From IMG/VR virus record IMGVR_UViG_3300010222_000173, positions 1 to 37,350 of that record: DNA of 37,350 bases. One strand, given 5' to 3'. Position numbers and translations under genes: made by a program. The notes below the pieces were generated by a model, which saw only the letters and a list, made by a program, of their open reading frames with translations, had not been told where the DNA came from and did not search any database. Shown piece by piece: positions 3,709-10,341 of this stretch; within the stretch, counting starts at the first letter, position 1, and each line of letters starts with the position of its first letter. This DNA is from a virus (taxonomy: Duplodnaviria; Caudoviricetes).

Positions 3709-3954
3709 TCAGTGAGAAGAAAGTCGCTGGTGTATCTGCGTTGGGTCAAGGCCTTGCTGTCGGAGCTCCTCTTCGAGCTCGTTGTGGCGCTCCATCAGGT
3801 CGGGGCTCACGCTTTGGTCTCGCTCTTGGCGAGCCTCGATCTTGGCGTGTGCGTAAGCGTATCGGCACTGTGTGCGGAGCGGGTCCTCTAGCCGGCCAAA
3901 AAGTTTCTGAGCGGCCTCGTTTATGGCCGTGCTCATCGACGTCGAGTCAGGCAT
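3709..3954 (-). CDS. Hypothetical protein
   Basis: Co-oriented; fills operon space. Confidence 0.55.
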   Translation of the reverse strand: MPDSTSMSTAINEAAQKLFGRLEDPLRTQCRYAYAHAKIEARQERDQSVSPDLMERHNELEEELRQQGLDPTQIHQRLSSH

Positions 3955-4036
3955 TTCGGCTCATCGGGTCTTGGTCGAGAGGCTTTCTGGCAAAGATCGT
4001 GGAGCGGATGGCGTAGATGTCGGGAACGTCAAGCAT
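3947..4036 (-). CDS. Small 29-aa ORF (MLDVPDIYAIRSTIFARKPLDQDPMSRNA), below ORF-track cutoff
   Basis: 8-nt overlaps with both neighbouring genes, consistent with translational coupling. Confidence 0.45.
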   Translation of the reverse strand: MLDVPDIYAIRSTIFARKPLDQDPMSRNA

Positions 4037-4589
4037 TGGTTTTGAGGCGCTCGCGAGCCTTAATTTTCAGAATGAATCGTCGCTCATTCTCTTCAGGACG
4101 GCAGATGCCAAAGTCGTCTCGCTCTAAGGCTGGCACCGTCTTCACGGCACCCCACACCTCCTCCTCAGTCAGCACCTTGCCCTGCTTGAGCCGCCGCCGC
4201 GTTTCTCGCATTGGCTCGATCACCCGCCTAAAGTCCGCAGCGGAAAGATCGCCACCGTACCGCAGTTTATCGTCCAACTCCGGGTCATCGGCCAGCCGGT
4301 CCACCGCGTACAAGATTTCCCCCTTTGTATACTCGCGCTTTTCGAGCCGCTGTCGAAGAGCTTTTTGCCGAAGGGGTTGCTCGCGAATGTCGGGCTGCAC
4401 CTCCAAGGCAAGCCGAGTGAGGGCGCCAGTGAGCTCACCACTCGAAACCGGAGAGCTCCACTTCTTGCTCGTCAGGGATGGAGTCGCCGGTAGATCCGGC
4501 AGGCCTGGGTTCTCCTGAGTCCCGTTCGCTCGGGGCGAATCCATCTCGGATCGCTTCGGGGTCGGTACGCTGCTTGTGTCGTTGCTCAT
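4029..4589 (-). CDS. Hypothetical protein, possible helicase-loader-type partner of the initiator
   Basis: Directly downstream of and overlapping the replication initiator (lambda O-P position); start uncertain. Confidence 0.5.
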   Translation of the reverse strand: MSNDTSSVPTPKRSEMDSPRANGTQENPGLPDLPATPSLTSKKWSSPVSSGELTGALTRLALEVQPDIREQPLRQKALRQRLEKREYTKGEILYAVDRLADDPELDDKLRYGGDLSAADFRRVIEPMRETRRRLKQGKVLTEEEVWGAVKTVPALERDDFGICRPEENERRFILKIKARERLKTNA

Positions 4590-5448
4590 AGTCGGCAAGA
4601 GCAGATTGGAGAATCTTGTCGAACTTTGTCGTGCCATCCTCGTCAGACTTTCGAAGGCTGCCGAGACTCTGAATTGTGCGGTTTGACTTCCACCAGTTGT
4701 CGGTCTTCAAGAGCCAGCCGAGAGTGATGCGTACGTCGTCTCGGCTGTAGCCGTCGAGGTTGACCACCTTCCGCAGAACATCTGCCCACTCGGAAGCGAT
4801 CTTCCCTCGTCGCTCCGACTTCAGTCGGCGGCGGTAGTGGCTGCTGAGCATCTCGTTGCGCTCCATCTGACCGAGTACCCATTCAGCGGCTACCCATCGC
4901 CAATCGTCTGGTAGATAGTCCCAGCGAACGGGGTGATCCTCGGGTAAGGGTTGAGCCTTCCAAGCGTCTCTAAAAACTGCGCTCTGCAGACGGTCGGGGA
5001 GCGTCGCATCAGCGGCGCTCACCCCTTTAGCACCTTCAAGGGGATTACCTTCAAGGGGATTACCTTTACTGGGGTACCCAAAATCTTGGGGGGGGTGGTA
5101 CCCAACTTTTTGGGTACCTAACTTTTTGGGGTCCCCAAAATCTTGGGGGGGGTCTTCCGTCTCTTCTTCCTCTTTGAGCGCGGTCAAATTCCAAGTGCTT
5201 GGTGGCGTTGTGCGATGTATATTTGTAGTGCCAGGGCGCCTCTCTCGCTTAACCATCGACGCGGATCGGAGGCTCTTTAGTGACTTCCTCAGCGTGGGCT
5301 CACTGACGCTTGTGTCGTCGCACATCTTCTCCAAAGACGCTGTGCATTCCCCTCGTCTTGAAATATGGCAAAACACGCGGAACTCATGCGGACTCAGGTC
5401 TGCATCGTCAAGTTTTGCCGGGATAAAAGGGGTGGGTGTGCTACTCAT
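4435..5448 (-). CDS. Phage replication initiator (N-terminal winged HTH)
   Basis: LSPHEFRVFCHI...SLEKMCDDTSVSEPTLRKSLKSL HTH; internal iteron cluster; C-terminal WW...IQSLGSLRK helical domain. Confidence 0.8.
   Translation of the reverse strand: MSSTPTPFIPAKLDDADLSPHEFRVFCHISRRGECTASLEKMCDDTSVSEPTLRKSLKSLRSASMVKRERRPGTTNIHRTTPPSTWNLTALKEEEETEDPPQDFGDPKKLGTQKVGYHPPQDFGYPSKGNPLEGNPLEGAKGVSAADATLPDRLQSAVFRDAWKAQPLPEDHPVRWDYLPDDWRWVAAEWVLGQMERNEMLSSHYRRRLKSERRGKIASEWADVLRKVVNLDGYSRDDVRITLGWLLKTDNWWKSNRTIQSLGSLRKSDEDGTTKFDKILQSALADYEQRHKQRTDPEAIRDGFAPSERDSGEPRPAGSTGDSIPDEQEVELSGFEW
5032..5153. repeat. Iteron cluster, putative replication origin
   Basis: ACCTTCAAGGGGATT x2 (5032-5061); CCCAAAATCTTGGGGGGGGT x2 (5077, 5134); GTACC(C/T)AACTTTTTGG x2 (5098-5129), all inside the initiator gene. 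Confidence 0.8.
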
Positions 5449-5491
5449 CAGAAAGATTCTCAACAGTGTTCAAGTCGCGTATGAGCTGTGG

Positions 5492-6379
5492 CTAAAAGGG
5501 AAGTGCCTCATCGTCCTCGAACGCCTCGTCGTTGGCCTCTCCGGATGCGGTGTCCACGTTCTCAGCCGCTTCCTTCACGTCGTCAGGGTCAACCTTCTGC
5601 GCTTCTTCCTCTGCCCCTTCTGCTTCTTGCTGGACGCGGTCGGCCTCGGCCGTTTTGAGGCGCTCAATCGTTTCCTCAGCCCACTCCTCAGGCCATTCAT
5701 CAAGGGGGTGATCCGAGGGCACCTTGCCTGCGTTCGATATGATGTCGGCGGCATCCGTGCCGTCCTGGACCTTTTGGACAAGCCAGTCGGACGCTTGCTG
5801 GTACCAGCCATCCGGCTTTCGCTGGATGACCTCACCGGTCTCGTAATCCACTTCTACCGATTGGGTGGCGCTGTTTGGGATGTCTTGTACCTCCGTCTCA
5901 TCAAGCCACCCAAGTCCAGCGAGGGAGAGGGTCACGCGCCGCTTCGCCTTCGTCTCGGCCTTCATGATGTCGTTGGCAAGATCTTGCCCGCTGGACCGGG
6001 ACGTATCCACAGCACCAGTCGCGACGTCCGTGCGGCCGTGTTCTGTCTTTGCGTAGGCCCGCACGACTAGGATGTCATCGCGCCATGTCTCTTCCATGTC
6101 TGTGATGGATATCCCATGGACGGACCGGAGCTGCTCCGCCGCGTCGCGCTTGGCGTACAGGGTGAGCTGGCCGTTGAGACGGATGTACTCGAATGGCTTC
6201 GTAAGAGGGTTCAGCCCGACCGACTCGCACACCTTGCGGTAGTAGTCAAGGCGCTGCTGAGGCGTGAGGTTGGACAAGTCCCCGTCTAGTAGCGCGTCCT
6301 CAACGCCCTCCACATCAGGGCGCTGCATCATTTCCCCGTTGCCTACGGCCTTCGCTGGTAGGGTCTCTGGATCTTCCAT
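5492..6379 (-). CDS. Bet/RecT-like single-strand annealing recombinase
   Basis: CESVGLNPLTKPFEYI and MKAETKAKRRVTLSLAGL motifs; acidic tail ending DDEALPF. Confidence 0.75.
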   Translation of the reverse strand: MEDPETLPAKAVGNGEMMQRPDVEGVEDALLDGDLSNLTPQQRLDYYRKVCESVGLNPLTKPFEYIRLNGQLTLYAKRDAAEQLRSVHGISITDMEETWRDDILVVRAYAKTEHGRTDVATGAVDTSRSSGQDLANDIMKAETKAKRRVTLSLAGLGWLDETEVQDIPNSATQSVEVDYETGEVIQRKPDGWYQQASDWLVQKVQDGTDAADIISNAGKVPSDHPLDEWPEEWAEETIERLKTAEADRVQQEAEGAEEEAQKVDPDDVKEAAENVDTASGEANDEAFEDDEALPF

Positions 6380-6401
6380 GTCACATGTGCGTGTCTATGA
6401 T

Positions 6402-6492
6402 CGAGAACACGAGTGAATGCCGACGCCACCGCTCCTCTCGGTGACGTTTCGCGGTCTCTCTCGCCGCTCATCAGGGCTCATCAGGGCCACTC
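6402..6492 (-). ncRNA. Hammerhead ribozyme, type I topology
   Basis: Minus strand reads GCC-CUGAUGA-GCGG(loop)CCGC-GAAA-CGUCACCG(loop)CGGUGGCG-UC-GGC; complete core, three stems, GUC cleavage triplet. Confidence 0.9.
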
Positions 6493-6958
6493 AGGCACGG
6501 ATCGGTTTTCCGTCTACCCCGAGCATATATGACCCATCACGCTCATAGGCGCGGTTGGCGCGGCGTGCCTCACGCCCGCGCGCCTCCCTAAGTAGCTCTT
6601 TCACCTCAGGGCAAGGGTGCTCAACTACATCGAGGGACATCTCACAACGACCGGTCCGCCGGAGCAGGTGGAGCCGCAGGCACCAATCTTCTAACCCCGC
6701 TAGGCTAGGCAGCAGGTGGTACCCGATCTCCTCGTAGGTGCCGAAGTGCGGCTTTCGCCTCCAGCCCTTGATGAGGTTACCGCTGTCATCCATGATGTAC
6801 ATCTCATAGGGGTAAGCCAGATCGCGGGCCCGCACTTGCCAGGCGGCGTAGTGAAGACCAAATGCGCGCCCTGTCTTGGCTGGGCTCCCAGGGCGCTTTT
6901 GCGTCACCTTGTCGATAGGAGCGAGAGTCGCCCCGGGCGTGTCTAGTGCGTCAGTCAT
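6491..6958 (-). CDS. Hypothetical protein
   Basis: Co-oriented; overlaps the upstream stop. Confidence 0.65.
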   Translation of the reverse strand: MTDALDTPGATLAPIDKVTQKRPGSPAKTGRAFGLHYAAWQVRARDLAYPYEMYIMDDSGNLIKGWRRKPHFGTYEEIGYHLLPSLAGLEDWCLRLHLLRRTGRCEMSLDVVEHPCPEVKELLREARGREARRANRAYERDGSYMLGVDGKPIRA

Positions 6959-7253
6959 GACAAATCACCTCGTGATGATCGGGTGTGATGTCGGTTTCAG
7001 CTAGTCGTTCTTTTGCGTCTTGGGCGGCCCAGTGCAGATGCTGACCGTTCTCACGAAGCCGCCTCGCCGCCTGATAGACCCGACCTACGTCCTTCACCTG
7101 AGGCTGCCCGTCTAGCACGCTAAGACGCTTGGCGCCCTTGATCGCGTGCGGGCTGAAAGCCCTGCGCCGGGGCAGAAGGACCCGGATCGCGAGGCAGGTA
7201 CTGCCAGCGAGAAGCCCGGCAAGGATAGGCGAGAGGTACCAGATCCAAGTCAT
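6951..7253 (-). CDS. Hypothetical protein with N-terminal TM helix
   Basis: WIWYLSPILAGLLAGSTCLAIRVLL; ATGA overlap. Confidence 0.6.
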   Translation of the reverse strand: MTWIWYLSPILAGLLAGSTCLAIRVLLPRRRAFSPHAIKGAKRLSVLDGQPQVKDVGRVYQAARRLRENGQHLHWAAQDAKERLAETDITPDHHEVICHD

Positions 7254-7426
7254 GGCCGCCGCTCCTCCCAGCCATAGGGCTGATCAGGTTGGCCAGGTCG
7301 CTCTTGCCGGGGCTCGCCTTTAGCAATGTCGTGCCCCAGCCCAATCACCCACGCAAAGATCGAGGCGATCATCAGGGGGGCACAGGCGGCCAAGATGAGC
7401 ACTTGGAGGGGGGTTAGGTTACTCAT
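7250..7426 (-). CDS. Small membrane protein
   Basis: LQVLILAACAPLMIASIFAWVIGLG; GGAGG RBS upstream. Confidence 0.55.
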   Translation of the reverse strand: MSNLTPLQVLILAACAPLMIASIFAWVIGLGHDIAKGEPRQERPGQPDQPYGWEERRP

Positions 7427-7700
7427 TGTCATCACCTCCCTTATCCTTGCTCCTCCAGTCAGCGTGATATCTGTGACCGTTCGCTTTTTCATATTCCTTG
7501 AAAAGATGGCGTATATCCGGCGCAGTCATATCACGCTTAGCATTCATCACCTTCGCGAGCATGCGGGCACGATACGACGCGTCCTCGTCTTGCTCATCTT
7601 CACGAGCGACGACATGGGCGAACGCCTTGCCTTTGTAGAGAACTGTCCAAACTCTTTCCTTTGAAAGCACAGCTTTGTAAAGGTCAGGGAGGTCATTCAT
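7419..7700 (-). CDS. Hypothetical protein
   Basis: ATG 7700 in ATGA overlap with GGAGG RBS. Confidence 0.6.
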   Translation of the reverse strand: MNDLPDLYKAVLSKERVWTVLYKGKAFAHVVAREDEQDEDASYRARMLAKVMNAKRDMTAPDIRHLFKEYEKANGHRYHADWRSKDKGGDDNE

Positions 7701-8104
7701 GCCGACACCTCCGCGCCCTGGCGGCGCGTCTTCTGGCGGATCTGAGCAAGCACGAGCTGCACGCCCTGCACGTTGTCGCGGCACCACGCCTCCCAGGCCG
7801 CATCTCCCCACTCCTCCGGCGGATCAATCGGCTGGGTGCGCTCCTTGAGCTTTGAGAAGAATTGGTGCTGCGTCATGCGTTGGCTGAGCGACTCGGTGAT
7901 GACCGTGATCTCGTACCCACTAGTCGAGCCGTGGTCGATGACATACCCCAGCGTCGCGTGCTGGCCGTAGCGGCGCTCCTTCTGGGGGTAGATCAGGCGA
8001 AAACCGCCGTTGCTGCGGTCGGTGCTCATGAGTTGCTCGTAGGTGTGGAGGGAGCCGCTGAATTCCGGCTCCGGAACCTTCGGTGGTGCTTTTGTCGTAG
8101 GCAT
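7697..8104 (-). CDS. Hypothetical protein
   Basis: 135-aa ORF co-oriented with the early operon. Confidence 0.65.
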   Translation of the reverse strand: MPTTKAPPKVPEPEFSGSLHTYEQLMSTDRSNGGFRLIYPQKERRYGQHATLGYVIDHGSTSGYEITVITESLSQRMTQHQFFSKLKERTQPIDPPEEWGDAAWEAWCRDNVQGVQLVLAQIRQKTRRQGAEVSA

Positions 8105-8136
8105 AGGTGCTTGATAGTTGATGAGAGAGCATCGCG

Positions 8137-8168
8137 CCCCGCTTCGGCTGTGACCGAGGCGGGGTTTC
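8137..8168 (+). terminator. GC-rich hairpin, terminator-like on + strand (antisense to early operon)
   Basis: CCCCGCTTCGG-ctgtga-CCGAGGCGGGG followed by TTTC; G-U pair forms only on the + strand. Confidence 0.5.
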
Positions 8169-8437
8169 TGTATGTGTGCCCCGCTTTCATTCGGCGGCGC
8201 GGGGCAGGCCGCCTAACAGTCTCCCGCACTCTGCACACCGATATCGCTTGTCTTGTGTGTAGAATGCGAGTGTAGAGCGCCAGCGCTCGGTCATTCTCGT
8301 CCGACACCGCCGCGAGGAGGCGGCTGGCATGGTGTCGTGTCGGCGCCATGGAGGCCCTTGTCGGCAGGTGGCGCCACACCTGCCCGCGAGTGGCTGGTGT
8401 GGTTGGTGATTGAGTCAGTCGAAAAGCCATGTGGACA

Positions 8438-8893
8438 TCAGCTGCCAGTGGCCGCCATGCGGCGCCCCTCCGCGATAATCTCATCCCCCTCTTGCTTGAT
8501 CTCGCGCCCGATCTCGATCACGATGGATCGGTTGCCCGCCTCGTAGGCGTCCCAGAGGCGAGACTGTAGCTGGTCCAAGTCGCGGTTGTTGTCGGTGATC
8601 GTCCCAGTCACGGGCACCTCGTCGGACACGGGTGCGATGCGGTGGCCCTCGTCGACCGAGAGGCTGGCAAGGCGCGTGTATCCCTCTGAGGCGGCTTGCC
8701 GGGCGAGGCAGATCATCGTTCCGCCATCCGGGGTGCAGTCGCCTCGCTTCCACGCGCCAGCGGTGCTGGGCTTGATGTCTGCCCAGGCGCTGATGACGTA
8801 CCTAGCGCTTCGGCCCTCATCTTCGAGGTCGTGCCAGAGGCGCTGATATGCGTCGCGCCAAGCGGCTATGGGATCGGAGTCAGAAGTTGACAT
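8438..8893 (-). CDS. CII-like phage regulatory protein (HTH)
   Basis: ARYVISAWADIKPSTAGAWKRG HTH-like segment; second gene of the lytic early operon. Confidence 0.55.
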   Translation of the reverse strand: MSTSDSDPIAAWRDAYQRLWHDLEDEGRSARYVISAWADIKPSTAGAWKRGDCTPDGGTMICLARQAASEGYTRLASLSVDEGHRIAPVSDEVPVTGTITDNNRDLDQLQSRLWDAYEAGNRSIVIEIGREIKQEGDEIIAEGRRMAATGS

Positions 8894-8942
8894 AGATGTC
8901 GGAGCAACAGGTGGGTGAGTTGAGCGTGCATATCAGCAGAGC

Positions 8943-9104
8943 TTAGGCGGGGACAGTCTCATCTTCCCCTAGTATCAGCTCTCGGATATACTCGCTCATA
9001 GTCAAGTCCCTCTGAGCAGCTTGCACCCGAAGCTGTGTCTTCTCTTCACTGCTGAGCTTGACGTGTAGGTACTCATCACGCTCCCGCTTGTCAGTGCCTG
9101 GCAT
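8943..9104 (-). CDS. Ribbon-helix-helix DNA-binding protein in the Cro position
   Basis: YLHVKLSSEEKTQLRVQAAQRDLTMSEYIRELI = RHH (MobC/CopG/Arc-like); divergent from the repressor. Confidence 0.8.
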   Translation of the reverse strand: MPGTDKRERDEYLHVKLSSEEKTQLRVQAAQRDLTMSEYIRELILGEDETVPA

Positions 9105-9214
9105 GGCAGTTATGTTGCCTGTGATTACTGTCAACAATGCGTCTACGTACACACACTGTCTACAGAGTTGGTCCCTACTGTGTGTGTAGATAAAGTTAAT
9201 AACACACTGTTTGT
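9105..9214. promoter_or_regulatory. Divergent lysis/lysogeny switch region with operator-like repeats
   Basis: TACACACACTGT (9148-9159) inverted to ACTGTGTGTGTA (9177-9188), 11/12 match; ACACACTGT again at 9202-9210; AT-rich. Confidence 0.7.
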
Positions 9215-9892
9215 ATGACTGACACCATCCAGCGAAGTCCGGTTCAGGACGAAATCATAGAACTGGTTAGGAAGTCGGATGAGCCAGTCCAACCGAAAGA
9301 GATGGAAAACCAGCTCAATCGCTCGCGCAACAGCATCAATAGTGCTCTGCGCAAACTAAAAGACGTCGGGGATTTGAAGCAGCCCGGATACGGTCTTTAC
9401 GACCTACCGGAGCGGGTCGAAGACCAAGACAAACCAAAGGGGCAGCAGGAAAAATCTACCGAAAACGGCCCCGAAACTCTTCCATTACTTAATACGGAGG
9501 CCCACGCTTCGGAGAGCGGCGGGGCTTGGGAGATTGAGGTAGAAAGTTACATGAGCGTTGATCGAGACATTCTTCGGGCACAGTCCGGCGGGAATCCCGA
9601 CCAAATGGCGATCATGACGGTCCCTGGCAACCAGATGAAGGGCACGATCAACCCTGGCGACCAGATTATCATCATTCGTCACCAGGAAGGGGATCGAATT
9701 TTGCAGGGTGGTGTCTACGTGTGGCTAAACGAGCAGAGGGGCGTGCTGATTTACCGCGCAGTCTGGCAAGACGATGGGAGCCTCACGCTACGTCCAGACA
9801 ACGACGACTGCCCCAAGATCAACATCAACGAAATTGAGGCCCCCGCTTGGAGGCCAATCGGACGCGTTTTCAGAGTAATGAGAGCCCTGTGA
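9215..9892 (+). CDS. CI-like repressor: N-terminal winged HTH plus degenerate S24 peptidase-like domain
   Basis: VQPKEMENQLNRSRNSINSALRKL wHTH; VPGNQM..INPGD...LRPDN...IGRV S24 fold; catalytic Ser and Lys positions are Q and Y. Confidence 0.8.
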   Translation: MTDTIQRSPVQDEIIELVRKSDEPVQPKEMENQLNRSRNSINSALRKLKDVGDLKQPGYGLYDLPERVEDQDKPKGQQEKSTENGPETLPLLNTEAHASESGGAWEIEVESYMSVDRDILRAQSGGNPDQMAIMTVPGNQMKGTINPGDQIIIIRHQEGDRILQGGVYVWLNEQRGVLIYRAVWQDDGSLTLRPDNDDCPKININEIEAPAWRPIGRVFRVMRAL

Positions 9893-10341
9893 TGGAGACG
9901 GATGTGCAGACGGATATACAGAAGGAACTCCCGCTTCTCGATGAAAATGAGCTCGCAAAAGTTGCGGAGGGCAAGACGCCTCTTCCGCAGAGCGTAGATG
10001 AGCACATAGCGGTCGACAACAAGCTCATAGACACCATCGACGAAAGCCGACAGCAGGCCATTGCCCGCGTGCCGGGTGACTCGATGGCAGGAACCATTGC
10101 CGCAGAAGACCGCGTAGTGATAGAGATAGAAGAGGGGTGTCAGATCATGCAGGGAGCGGTCTACATGTGGGCCAATGGCCAGGGTGGCGTAATCATCATG
10201 CGAGCGCACTGGGTGGATGCGCGGACTGTGCGCCTCGTGCCTGACAATGACGACTATCCAGTCATTGAGCTAGAGGGGGATCGCGACAGCTGGGCGTGGA
10301 CCTGCATTGCCCGCGTGACGCAGGTGTTGAGCGGGGTATGA
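9892..10341 (+). CDS. Stand-alone S24-like domain protein, paralog of the repressor C-terminal domain
   Basis: TGATG overlap; VPGDSM...LVPDNDDYP...IARV; Lys position is M; no HTH. Confidence 0.8.
   Translation: METDVQTDIQKELPLLDENELAKVAEGKTPLPQSVDEHIAVDNKLIDTIDESRQQAIARVPGDSMAGTIAAEDRVVIEIEEGCQIMQGAVYMWANGQGGVIIMRAHWVDARTVRLVPDNDDYPVIELEGDRDSWAWTCIARVTQVLSGV

What the first reader, a model, noticed from the sequence alone, without database searches (positions are those of the whole stretch)
6402..6492. Hammerhead ribozyme in the early operon, just upstream of the Bet/RecT-like gene
Seen in sequence (minus strand, sense to the operon): GCC CUGAUGA (6474-6468), stem II GCGG/CCGC, GAAA, 9-bp stem III ACGUCACCG/CGGUGGCGU with a G-U pair, then GUC and GGC closing stem I. 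All hammerhead core nucleotides are present. Predicted cleavage falls between 6422 and 6421, leaving a 42-nt 5'-OH leader on the recombinase/replication mRNA. Loop II (CGAGAG) can pair with UUCUCG (6407-6402), a possible activating pseudoknot. Established: hammerheads occur in phage intergenic regions, mostly with unknown function. Inference: it splits the early transcript and changes the stability or translation of the recombination/replication part.
Basis: partly seen in the sequence, partly recalled or inferred. Interest (0 to 1): 0.85.

Follow-up and report, generated by a model that had tools for sequence, protein, structure and literature searches.

The report
Hammerhead ribozyme guarding phage recombination slot
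A complete self-cutting hammerhead RNA motif, a kind already known from phages, sits just ahead of a predicted DNA-annealing gene in this phage and at the same spot in related phages even where the neighbouring genes have been swapped, and it likely cuts the early transcript to give that gene its own short-leader mRNA.

Summary
Confirmed: a complete type I hammerhead (minus strand, core 6474-6468, predicted cut 6422|6421), matched by 0 of 300 shuffles but below every Rfam cut-off. Seven related records carry one at the same operon position. Cores are intact (one has the known U13a insertion), stems covary, and the cut lies 38-42 nt before the start codon. The downstream gene is not always the same: a Rad52/Redbeta-fold protein with no family model here, RecT in one lineage, unrelated families in others. 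Upstream genes also differ. The window's copy looks like a hybrid of two subtypes joined at a shared 12-nt block. The proposed pseudoknot is no better than shuffled leaders (85 of 1000). The likely host family has RNase E/G (5 of 5) and no detected RNase J (0 of 58), so the 5'-OH product is more likely stabilised than destroyed. Two prophage-type relatives lack the motif, and there are no RNA data. Intergenic phage hammerheads are known and common, so this is a new member of a known kind with an unusually fixed, testable context.

The parts
6491..6958 (-). Upstream ORF, 155 aa, unknown function; stop TGA at 6493-6491
   Evidence: no PHROG or Pfam hit; no relative in viral contigs; relatives in runs X3 and X4
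6473..6484 (-). First CUGAUGA plus GCCCU: 12-nt block shared by both hammerhead subtypes; inferred crossover point and relic of the other subtype's core; unlikely to be the working core
   Evidence: sequence; run X4 contig follows the window to 6473 and then continues into its own stem II and GAAAC; 5' flank 25 of 28 nt like L431 allowing one gap (read); constrained fold P about 1e-8 or lower against 1e-6 to 2e-3 for the second core
6475..6477 (-). Stem I 5' strand GCC
   Evidence: covaries in L431
6468..6474 (-). Catalytic core CUGAUGA (C3-A9)
   Evidence: CUGAYGA in all 7 records tabulated
6451..6467 (-). Stem II GCGG/CCGC with 9-nt loop CGAGAGAGA
   Evidence: identical in L430 and L432, replaced by GCCC/GGGC in L431, L433, L434, L320
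6447..6450 (-). Core GAAA (G12, A13, A14, A15.1)
   Evidence: GAUAA (U13a insertion) in L438 and L496
6423..6447 (-). Stem III, 9 bp with a 7-nt loop, closed by A15.1-U16.1
   Evidence: different sequences, all paired, in relatives
6421..6424 (-). GUC triplet; predicted cleavage between 6422 and 6421
   Evidence: hammerhead consensus; GUC in 5 and GUU in 2 of the 7 records tabulated
6380..6421 (-). Predicted 42-nt 5'-OH leader: stem I 3' strand GGC, a pyrimidine tract and an ACAGACAC-like motif
   Evidence: leaders of relatives are 38-41 nt
5492..6379 (-). 295-aa protein with a predicted Rad52/Redbeta-superfamily annealing fold and an acidic C-terminal tail; no family model
   Evidence: model pLDDT 86.8; Foldseek best RAD52 E 2.1e-4, Redbeta E 3.3e-3; VIA best RAD52 Z 7.5, rmsd 4.0, 109 aligned; at least 6756 homologs, 68% identical to a Salinibacter ruber protein
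4435..5463 (-). Replication initiator-like gene following the slot
   Evidence: PHROG 270 E 1.1e-8; 47% identical over 197 aa to the gene at the same position in L432

Best explanation
A complete type I hammerhead motif lies between two early genes of this phage, and it likely cuts the long early transcript 42 nt ahead of a predicted single-strand-annealing gene, giving that gene and the replication genes behind it their own mRNA. Shown: the motif, its covariation, and its fixed position ahead of this gene slot in related phages. Inferred: the genes from 8893 down past 4435 are co-transcribed on the minus strand; stems I-III fold as the RNA is made and the RNA is cut after C6422. The upstream piece would keep stems II and III and a 2',3'-cyclic phosphate at its 3' end. 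The downstream piece would begin with a 5'-OH and a standard leader of about 40 nt. In a host with RNase E/G and no RNase J, a 5'-OH end would be a poor substrate for 5'-end-dependent decay. The predicted net effect is to insulate and modestly stabilise the recombination/replication mRNA and make it independent of whichever variable gene lies upstream.
For: Motif beyond chance. Eight records (seven independent, since L433 and L434 are near-identical) carry it at the same slot. In the 7 tabulated, positions I.1-3, II.1-4 and III.1-8 are all paired except one III.8 mismatch shared by L433 and L434, with double changes at I.1, I.3, II.3, II.4 and stem III. L001/L431 and L438 were found through the protein, not the RNA, so their pairing is not circular. 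The cut-to-ATG distance is 42, 39, 39, 41, 39, 39, 39 and 38 (counted), whereas only 4 of 91 other phage type I hits fall at 38-42 nt. Downstream genes belong to unrelated families (RecT PF03837 in L433/L434; no BLAST match between the window's family and the L430/L432 family), and upstream genes show no similarity apart from L433/L434 and the two PD-(D/E)XK nucleases of L320 and L438. RNase E/G found in 5 of 5 and RNase J in 0 of 58 family genomes. RNase E prefers 5'-monophosphate over 5'-OH (PMC2631609, passages), while decay after glmS cleavage needs RNase J1 (PMC3997798, passages). Prophage hammerheads cleave in vitro and in E. coli, and a halovirus early-transcript 5' end maps within 3 nt of its hammerhead site (PMC3088659).
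Against: No cleavage or transcript data. Stem I is only 3 bp (10 of 104 other phage hits are that short). The hammerhead is not the minimum-energy fold, and its computed ensemble share is 2e-4 to 9e-3, although L431 scores as low and the program ignores tertiary contacts. The motif is dispensable in the wider family: not found before the same gene family in a Salinivenus contig (L174/L429) or before the L430-type gene in L437. Only 1 of 240 protein-first loci of the window's family has it directly upstream, and that one is the L001 contig again (some loci have little upstream DNA). It is not exclusive to the slot: G002 has a second one before a 98-aa unknown gene. The shared leader length may be common descent of a 5' module rather than selection. 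The host is inferred, most family genomes may be incomplete, and the RNase logic comes from E. coli and B. subtilis.
Confidence: 0.6

Rival explanations
1. Conditional switch: the leader pairs with loop II or the core, either as an activating pseudoknot or as an inhibitory fold, so cleavage depends on salt, Mg, transcription speed or ribosome traffic and times the expression of the recombination/replication genes.
For: Loop II is identical in three otherwise diverged copies, all with a short stem I (3-4 bp), and each leader can pair with it over 6-8 nt. In L430 the full leader drops the hammerhead share from 0.03-0.05 to 5e-10. Pseudoknots occur in about 40% of hammerheads, and salt-dependent variants exist in halophiles (PMC3088659). 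In 61 of 104 other phage hits the upstream stop codon is the core UGA or lies 4-7 nt before the core, so a terminating ribosome could block folding.
Against: Pairing is no better than shuffled leaders (85, 320 and 416 of 1000), the register differs, and the best partner belongs to L431, whose loop II is different. The window's core is canonical, not a saltern-type insertion variant. Its stop codon lies 16 nt before the working core.
Confidence: 0.17
2. Cleavage lowers downstream expression: it opens the recombination/replication mRNA to decay, glmS-style, limiting a costly annealing protein or silencing read-through in the lysogen.
For: glmS cleavage leaves a 5'-OH that is degraded by RNase J1 (PMC3997798). 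A fresh end only about 40 nt from the start codon gives little protection.
Against: RNase J was not detected in 0 of 58 family genomes, while the control rang in 10 of 14 reference genomes; RNase E/G is present in 5 of 5 and disfavours 5'-OH ends.
Confidence: 0.12
3. This copy is slow or inactive and is kept mainly as a conserved DNA junction between exchangeable gene modules.
For: 3-bp stem I and a low computed fold share. The window shares 41 identical nt with L430 while both flanking genes are unrelated. The 5' flank is of the other subtype. Redbeta needs only 23-27 bp of identity (PMC3945230, passages).
Against: Compensatory changes keep the RNA structure while removing DNA identity between subtypes (longest shared blocks 11-14 nt), which is selection on RNA and not on homology. 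All core nucleotides are intact.
Confidence: 0.1
4. Chance match to the hammerhead consensus.
For: No Rfam hit at the gathering score; PMC3088659 warns that consensus matches arise by chance.
Against: 0 of 300 shuffles; position and structure conserved with covariation, including in protein-first loci.
Confidence: 0.01

Closest known systems
Type I hammerhead ribozyme (Rfam RF00163, accession recalled; clan CL00010 as shown for RF00008)
   Same: Full core CUGANGA / GAAA / NUH, G10.1-C11.1 pair, closed stems II and III, open stem I.
   Different: Scores below all Rfam cut-offs. Stem I is only 3 bp, and a second CUGAUGA lies 10 nt upstream. The stem I-loop II tertiary contact is not identified.
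Intergenic prophage and phage hammerheads of Perreault et al. 2011 (PMC3088659; sections 6, 8, 9 and part 1 of 11 read)
   Same: Intergenic, in a (pro)phage polycistronic region, proposed to process long transcripts; U13a variant seen in relatives.
   Different: There the ribozymes come in clusters around genes whose identities are not constant. Here there is one per window, held at one functional slot ahead of the replication initiator with a 38-42-nt leader.
HHphage of haloviruses HF1/HF2 (PMC3088659)
   Same: Halophile virus, early region, just upstream of a DNA-metabolism gene.
   Different: HHphage has an insertion near C3 and a 13-nt leader and infects archaea; this one has a canonical core, a 42-nt leader and a likely bacterial host.
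glmS ribozyme (PMC3997798 and PMC6765202, passages)
   Same: Self-cleavage upstream of a coding sequence leaves a 5'-OH mRNA.
   Different: Different fold, needs a metabolite, and relies on RNase J1, which was not detected in the likely host family.
Synthetic ribozyme insulators (RiboJ type) and T7 early RNase III sites
   Same: Cut a polycistronic or variable 5' region to give a standard leader.
   Different: Engineered, or dependent on a host enzyme; this one is natural and would need no enzyme.

Membership tests
Hammerhead ribozyme, type I | Core C3-U4-G5-A6-N7-G8-A9 | tested here: met
   CUGAUGA 6474-6468; CUGAYGA in 7 of 7 tabulated records
Hammerhead ribozyme, type I | G12-A13-A14 and A15.1-U16.1 pair, NUH cleavage triplet | tested here: met
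   GAAA 6450-6447, U6423, GUC
Hammerhead ribozyme, type I | Three helices round the core, stems II and III closed by loops, stem I open | tested here: met
   3, 4 and 9 bp; covariation in relatives
Hammerhead ribozyme, type I | Tertiary contact between stem I and loop II for fast cleavage | tested here: inconclusive
   Loop II conserved in 3 records, but no pairing above chance
Hammerhead ribozyme, type I | Self-cleavage after H17 | not testable with these tools
   Needs an in vitro assay or RNA end mapping
Rfam hammerhead models (score-defined membership) | Bit score at or above the gathering cut-off | tested here: not met
   0 hits; Hammerhead_3 14.1 bits against 48.5. This bars filing under an Rfam model by score, not the structural class.
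Pseudoknot-stabilised hammerheads (Perreault 2011) | Conserved or covarying base pairs between loop II and a strand flanking stem I, in fixed register | tested here: inconclusive
   6-8 nt pairings are possible in 3 of 3 records with this loop, but registers differ and shuffled leaders do as well in 85, 320 and 416 of 1000
Saltern core-insertion variants (HHmeta, HHphage) | Short insertion near C3 and stem I | tested here: not met
   Stem I abuts C3 directly; the feature is described
RecT/Bet family (PF03837) for the downstream protein | Profile match above cut-off | tested here: not met
   No Pfam, PHROG or relevant NCBIfam hit; hhalign to the L375 RecT 3.9%
Rad52/Redbeta single-strand-annealing superfamily for the downstream protein | Shared annealing-domain fold | tested here: inconclusive
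   Best Foldseek rows RAD52 (E 2.1e-4, TM 0.37), Mgm101, Redbeta (TM 0.42); VIA RAD52 Z 7.5, rmsd 4.0, 109 aligned, but dsRBD domains score within 1 Z. Gene position and acidic tail agree.
Rad52/Redbeta single-strand-annealing superfamily for the downstream protein | ssDNA annealing activity | not testable with these tools
   Needs a biochemical or recombineering assay

The most novel reading that the evidence does not exclude
In phages of Salinibacter-like hosts the hammerhead is a natural insulator and module boundary. It gives the ssDNA-handling/replication module a standard 5'-OH leader whatever gene lies upstream, and its conserved core also serves as the DNA crossover point at which upstream genes and ribozyme halves are reshuffled, possibly by the annealing protein it precedes. 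The window's doubled CUGAUGA would be the scar of such a crossover.
Probability: 0.25. Interest if true: 0.65.

Novelty: new member of a known kind. Interest (0 to 1): 0.4.

Why it matters
The role of self-cleaving ribozymes in phages is still open (PMC6765202, passages). Most cases sit in arrays around small unknown genes, so there is no obvious read-out. Here one ribozyme is held ahead of one functional slot (annealing or ssDNA-binding protein, then replication initiator) through several gene replacements, with a prophage copy beside a protein listed from Salinibacter ruber. This gives a direct test with measurable outputs: mRNA half-life, recombination frequency and burst size. If it also marks exchange points, it would link RNA processing to phage genome mosaicism.

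Tried and rejected
Rfam at gathering score: nothing. Pseudoknot: not above shuffled leaders. First CUGAUGA as an alternative core: fold share about 1e-8 or lower, stem II only 2 bp. Assembly artefact for the doubled motif: rejected by run X2. Other hammerheads in the window (types I-III, GAUAA and C3U allowed): three loose cores printed, only 6474 is complete. Promoter and terminator scan of 3900-9400: no minus-strand site, so co-transcription rests on gene order. No RNA holder listed in the run search. A closer look at base differences of relatives in runs X1-X4 could not be obtained, so substitutions inside the X3 and X1 copies are unseen (one search showed 40 of 143 rows). Annotated phage collection: no DNA relative; three distant protein relatives. 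Upstream ORF: no relative in viral contigs. The first genome-collection scan found none. Pattern: 33 stretches, only the L006 contig is a hammerhead. Pattern scan of 58 family genomes: 35 matches, 30 fetched, 1 passed the descriptor. Sequence-only model R1: 2 of 58 genomes at E below 1e-3, one of them in the training set. General link between this protein family and hammerheads: rejected outside this lineage. RecT genes of 3 of 58 family genomes and 12 loci matching only the C-terminal part of the L430-type protein: no hammerhead. Fold of the L430/L432 family: only weak OB-fold rows (Foldseek best E 0.03; VIA best Z 5.3, most rows Z 3-4); the atlas gave unnamed clusters and nothing usable for L320. 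Paper searches (listings only) showed no title or abstract on hammerheads in Salinibacter phages or linked to annealing genes. The supplements of PMC3088659 (Dataset S1) were not opened and may list related sequences.

Full report
Observation. On the minus strand the region 6477-6419 reads as a complete type I hammerhead: stem I GCC/GGC, core CUGAUGA, stem II GCGG/CCGC with loop CGAGAGAGA, GAAA, a 9-bp stem III with one G-U pair, and GUC, predicting a cut between 6422 and 6421, 42 nt before the ATG at 6379. A descriptor search finds only this site in the window; 1 of 300 dinucleotide shuffles gave any loose hit and 0 of 300 gave equal stems. A relaxed search for types I-III and core variants added no complete motif. 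Rfam misses it at the gathering score and gives only Hammerhead_3 at 14.1 bits. The unconstrained minimum-energy fold keeps stem III but not the junction.

Setting. The window is a whole virus record with CI-like repressor genes, a minus-strand early operon, terminase, portal, capsid and tail-like genes, and an integrase-like gene (the late-gene and integrase labels are my reading of the translations). The downstream protein is 68% identical to a Salinibacter ruber protein, so a Salinibacter-like host is inferred. It has at least 6756 homologs but no Pfam, PHROG, relevant NCBIfam or PDB-sequence match. Its N-terminal model (pLDDT 86.8) is closest to RAD52, with Mgm101, Redbeta, Sak and RecT lower; dsRBD domains score within 1 Z, so the fold call is likely but not clean. 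A replication-initiator-like gene follows.

Relatives. The only close protein-first hit in viral contigs, L001, has a hammerhead at the same place with different stems. RNA-first pattern scans added L006, L320, L368 and L375 and L432 (this pattern included a leader motif). A protein-first scan with the L006 gene gave L438, with the U13a insertion, a natural variant described in PMC3088659 (section 8). In the 7 tabulated records all cells of I.1-3, II.1-4 and III.1-7 are paired, with double changes in all three stems; this is circular for RNA-first hits but not for L001 and L438. The cut lies 38-42 nt before the start codon in all 8 records, against 4 of 91 other phage type I hits (66 of 91 lie at 13-36 nt). 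Assigning hits to this lineage was my judgement from G+C content, gene order and protein ends.

The slot. In all 8 records the next gene encodes a 295-348-aa protein with an acidic tail ending in LPF or MPF, followed by an HTH-type or initiator-like gene where this was checked. The core domains differ: the Rad52-like family (window, L431), RecT (L433/L434, PF03837), an unnamed family with at most weak OB-fold resemblance (L430, L432, L438) and a fourth N-terminal domain (L320). The RecT and the L431 protein share their N-terminal and C-terminal ends, so domain swaps appear to happen inside the gene, leaving ribozyme, leader and first codons as one inherited 5' module. Upstream genes are unrelated except for L433/L434 and the two PD-(D/E)XK nucleases.

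Limits of the association. L174/L429 (same protein family, Salinivenus contig) and L437 have no hammerhead. Of 240 protein-first loci of the window's family from many phyla, 8 show a core-like pattern anywhere and only the L001 contig has a full motif directly upstream (some loci hold little upstream DNA). G002 carries a second, U13a-type hammerhead before a small unknown gene. Type I hammerheads are very common in phage intergenic gaps: 100 distinct ones among the loci held, many in arrays; in 61 of 104 non-lineage hits the upstream stop is the core UGA or lies 4-7 nt before the core.

The doubled core. The window has CUGAUGA twice, 10 nt apart. A contig from another study is identical across it and two more diverged contigs align without a gap. 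From 6485 to 6445 the window shares 41 identical nt with L430, whose flanking genes are both unrelated. Its 5' flank instead resembles L431, and a contig in run X4 that shares the window's upstream gene follows it to 6473 and then continues into a GCCCU/AGGGC stem II and GAAAC, using the first CUGAUGA as its core (30-letter loose end). The two subtypes overlap in a 12-nt block, so the window's copy is most simply a hybrid joined there (inference). A simpler reading exists for L430, where the first copy is just the stop codon followed by the stem I strand. The first copy is a poor alternative core in the window. Twelve nt is below the 23-27 bp quoted for Redbeta (PMC3945230, passages), which weighs against the simplest version of the crossover idea.

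Pseudoknot. Loop II is identical in the window, L430 and L432, all with short stems I, which hints at a constraint. But its pairing with their leaders is matched by 85, 320 and 416 of 1000 shuffled leaders, the register differs, and the best partner is the L431 leader (0 of 1000), whose own loop II is different. The same pairing can extend into folds that disrupt the ribozyme. The computed share of the hammerhead fold is low for the window (2e-4 to 9e-3) and for L431, and high for L432-L434 in some contexts. The contact is unresolved.

Mechanism. Shown: motif, covariation and position. Inferred: co-transcription, cleavage and its effect. Cleavage would leave hairpins on the upstream piece and a 5'-OH leader on the downstream piece. 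RNase E/G was found in 5 of 5 family genomes tested and RNase J in 0 of 58 (genomes may be incomplete). RNase E disfavours 5'-OH ends (PMC2631609, passages), while glmS decay needs RNase J1 (PMC3997798, passages). Insulation with modest stabilisation of the recombination/replication mRNA is therefore the best reading (0.6); a conditional switch (0.17), decay (0.12) and an inactive junction (0.10) remain.

What is known. PMC3088659 (passages and sections 6, 8, 9, 11 part 1; supplements not opened) reports prophage hammerheads flanking variable genes, shows cleavage in vitro and in E. coli, and proposes transcript processing. PMC6765202 (passages) calls the purpose unresolved. Eight paper searches (listings only) showed nothing on this lineage or on a link to annealing genes. 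Earlier notes of this scan report similar elements in other phages, one before an erf gene; these are unchecked leads. Verdict: a real hammerhead, a new member of a known kind, made more useful by its fixed slot and apparent hybrid origin. Interest 0.40.

Noticed in passing
window 5492-6379 (-): The downstream protein belongs to a large family (at least 6756 homologs, many phyla) with a predicted Rad52/Redbeta-like fold and no Pfam, PHROG or NCBIfam model: a possibly undescribed annealing-protein family.
   Followed up: partly
window 6386-6381 (-): A start-stop AUG-UGA sits 1 nt before the real start codon; none of the other seven slot leaders has it.
   Followed up: no
L496:1501 on the minus strand (G002:C1:24501-24529): Second hammerhead in the L001 prophage, with the U13a insertion and a leader of about 61 nt before a 98-aa unknown gene.
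   Followed up: partly
L431, L433/L434, L430, L432, L320 slot genes: Unrelated core domains share an MSDP-type start and an acidic LPF-type tail, suggesting domain swaps inside the gene.
   Followed up: partly
L440-L451 (12 family genomes): A conserved gene starting MPTGHF shares only the C-terminal domain of the L430-type slot protein and has no hammerhead; several copies lie among housekeeping-looking genes.
   Followed up: no
L325, L326, L327, L354-L357, L383, L399, L436: Arrays of 3-8 type I hammerheads between small genes; in many the core UGA is the upstream stop codon.
   Followed up: partly
L432:2486-2507: This copy also has a partial direct repeat of the stem I strand and core start 15 nt upstream, with a broken first core.
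   Followed up: no
window 9215-10341 (+): Two tandem CI-like genes; the second matches only the C-terminal part of the repressor profiles.
   Followed up: no
run X1, records 2 and 3: A second element in the same run carries an L430-type hammerhead with a different upstream flank and a downstream gene starting MSDP.
   Followed up: partly
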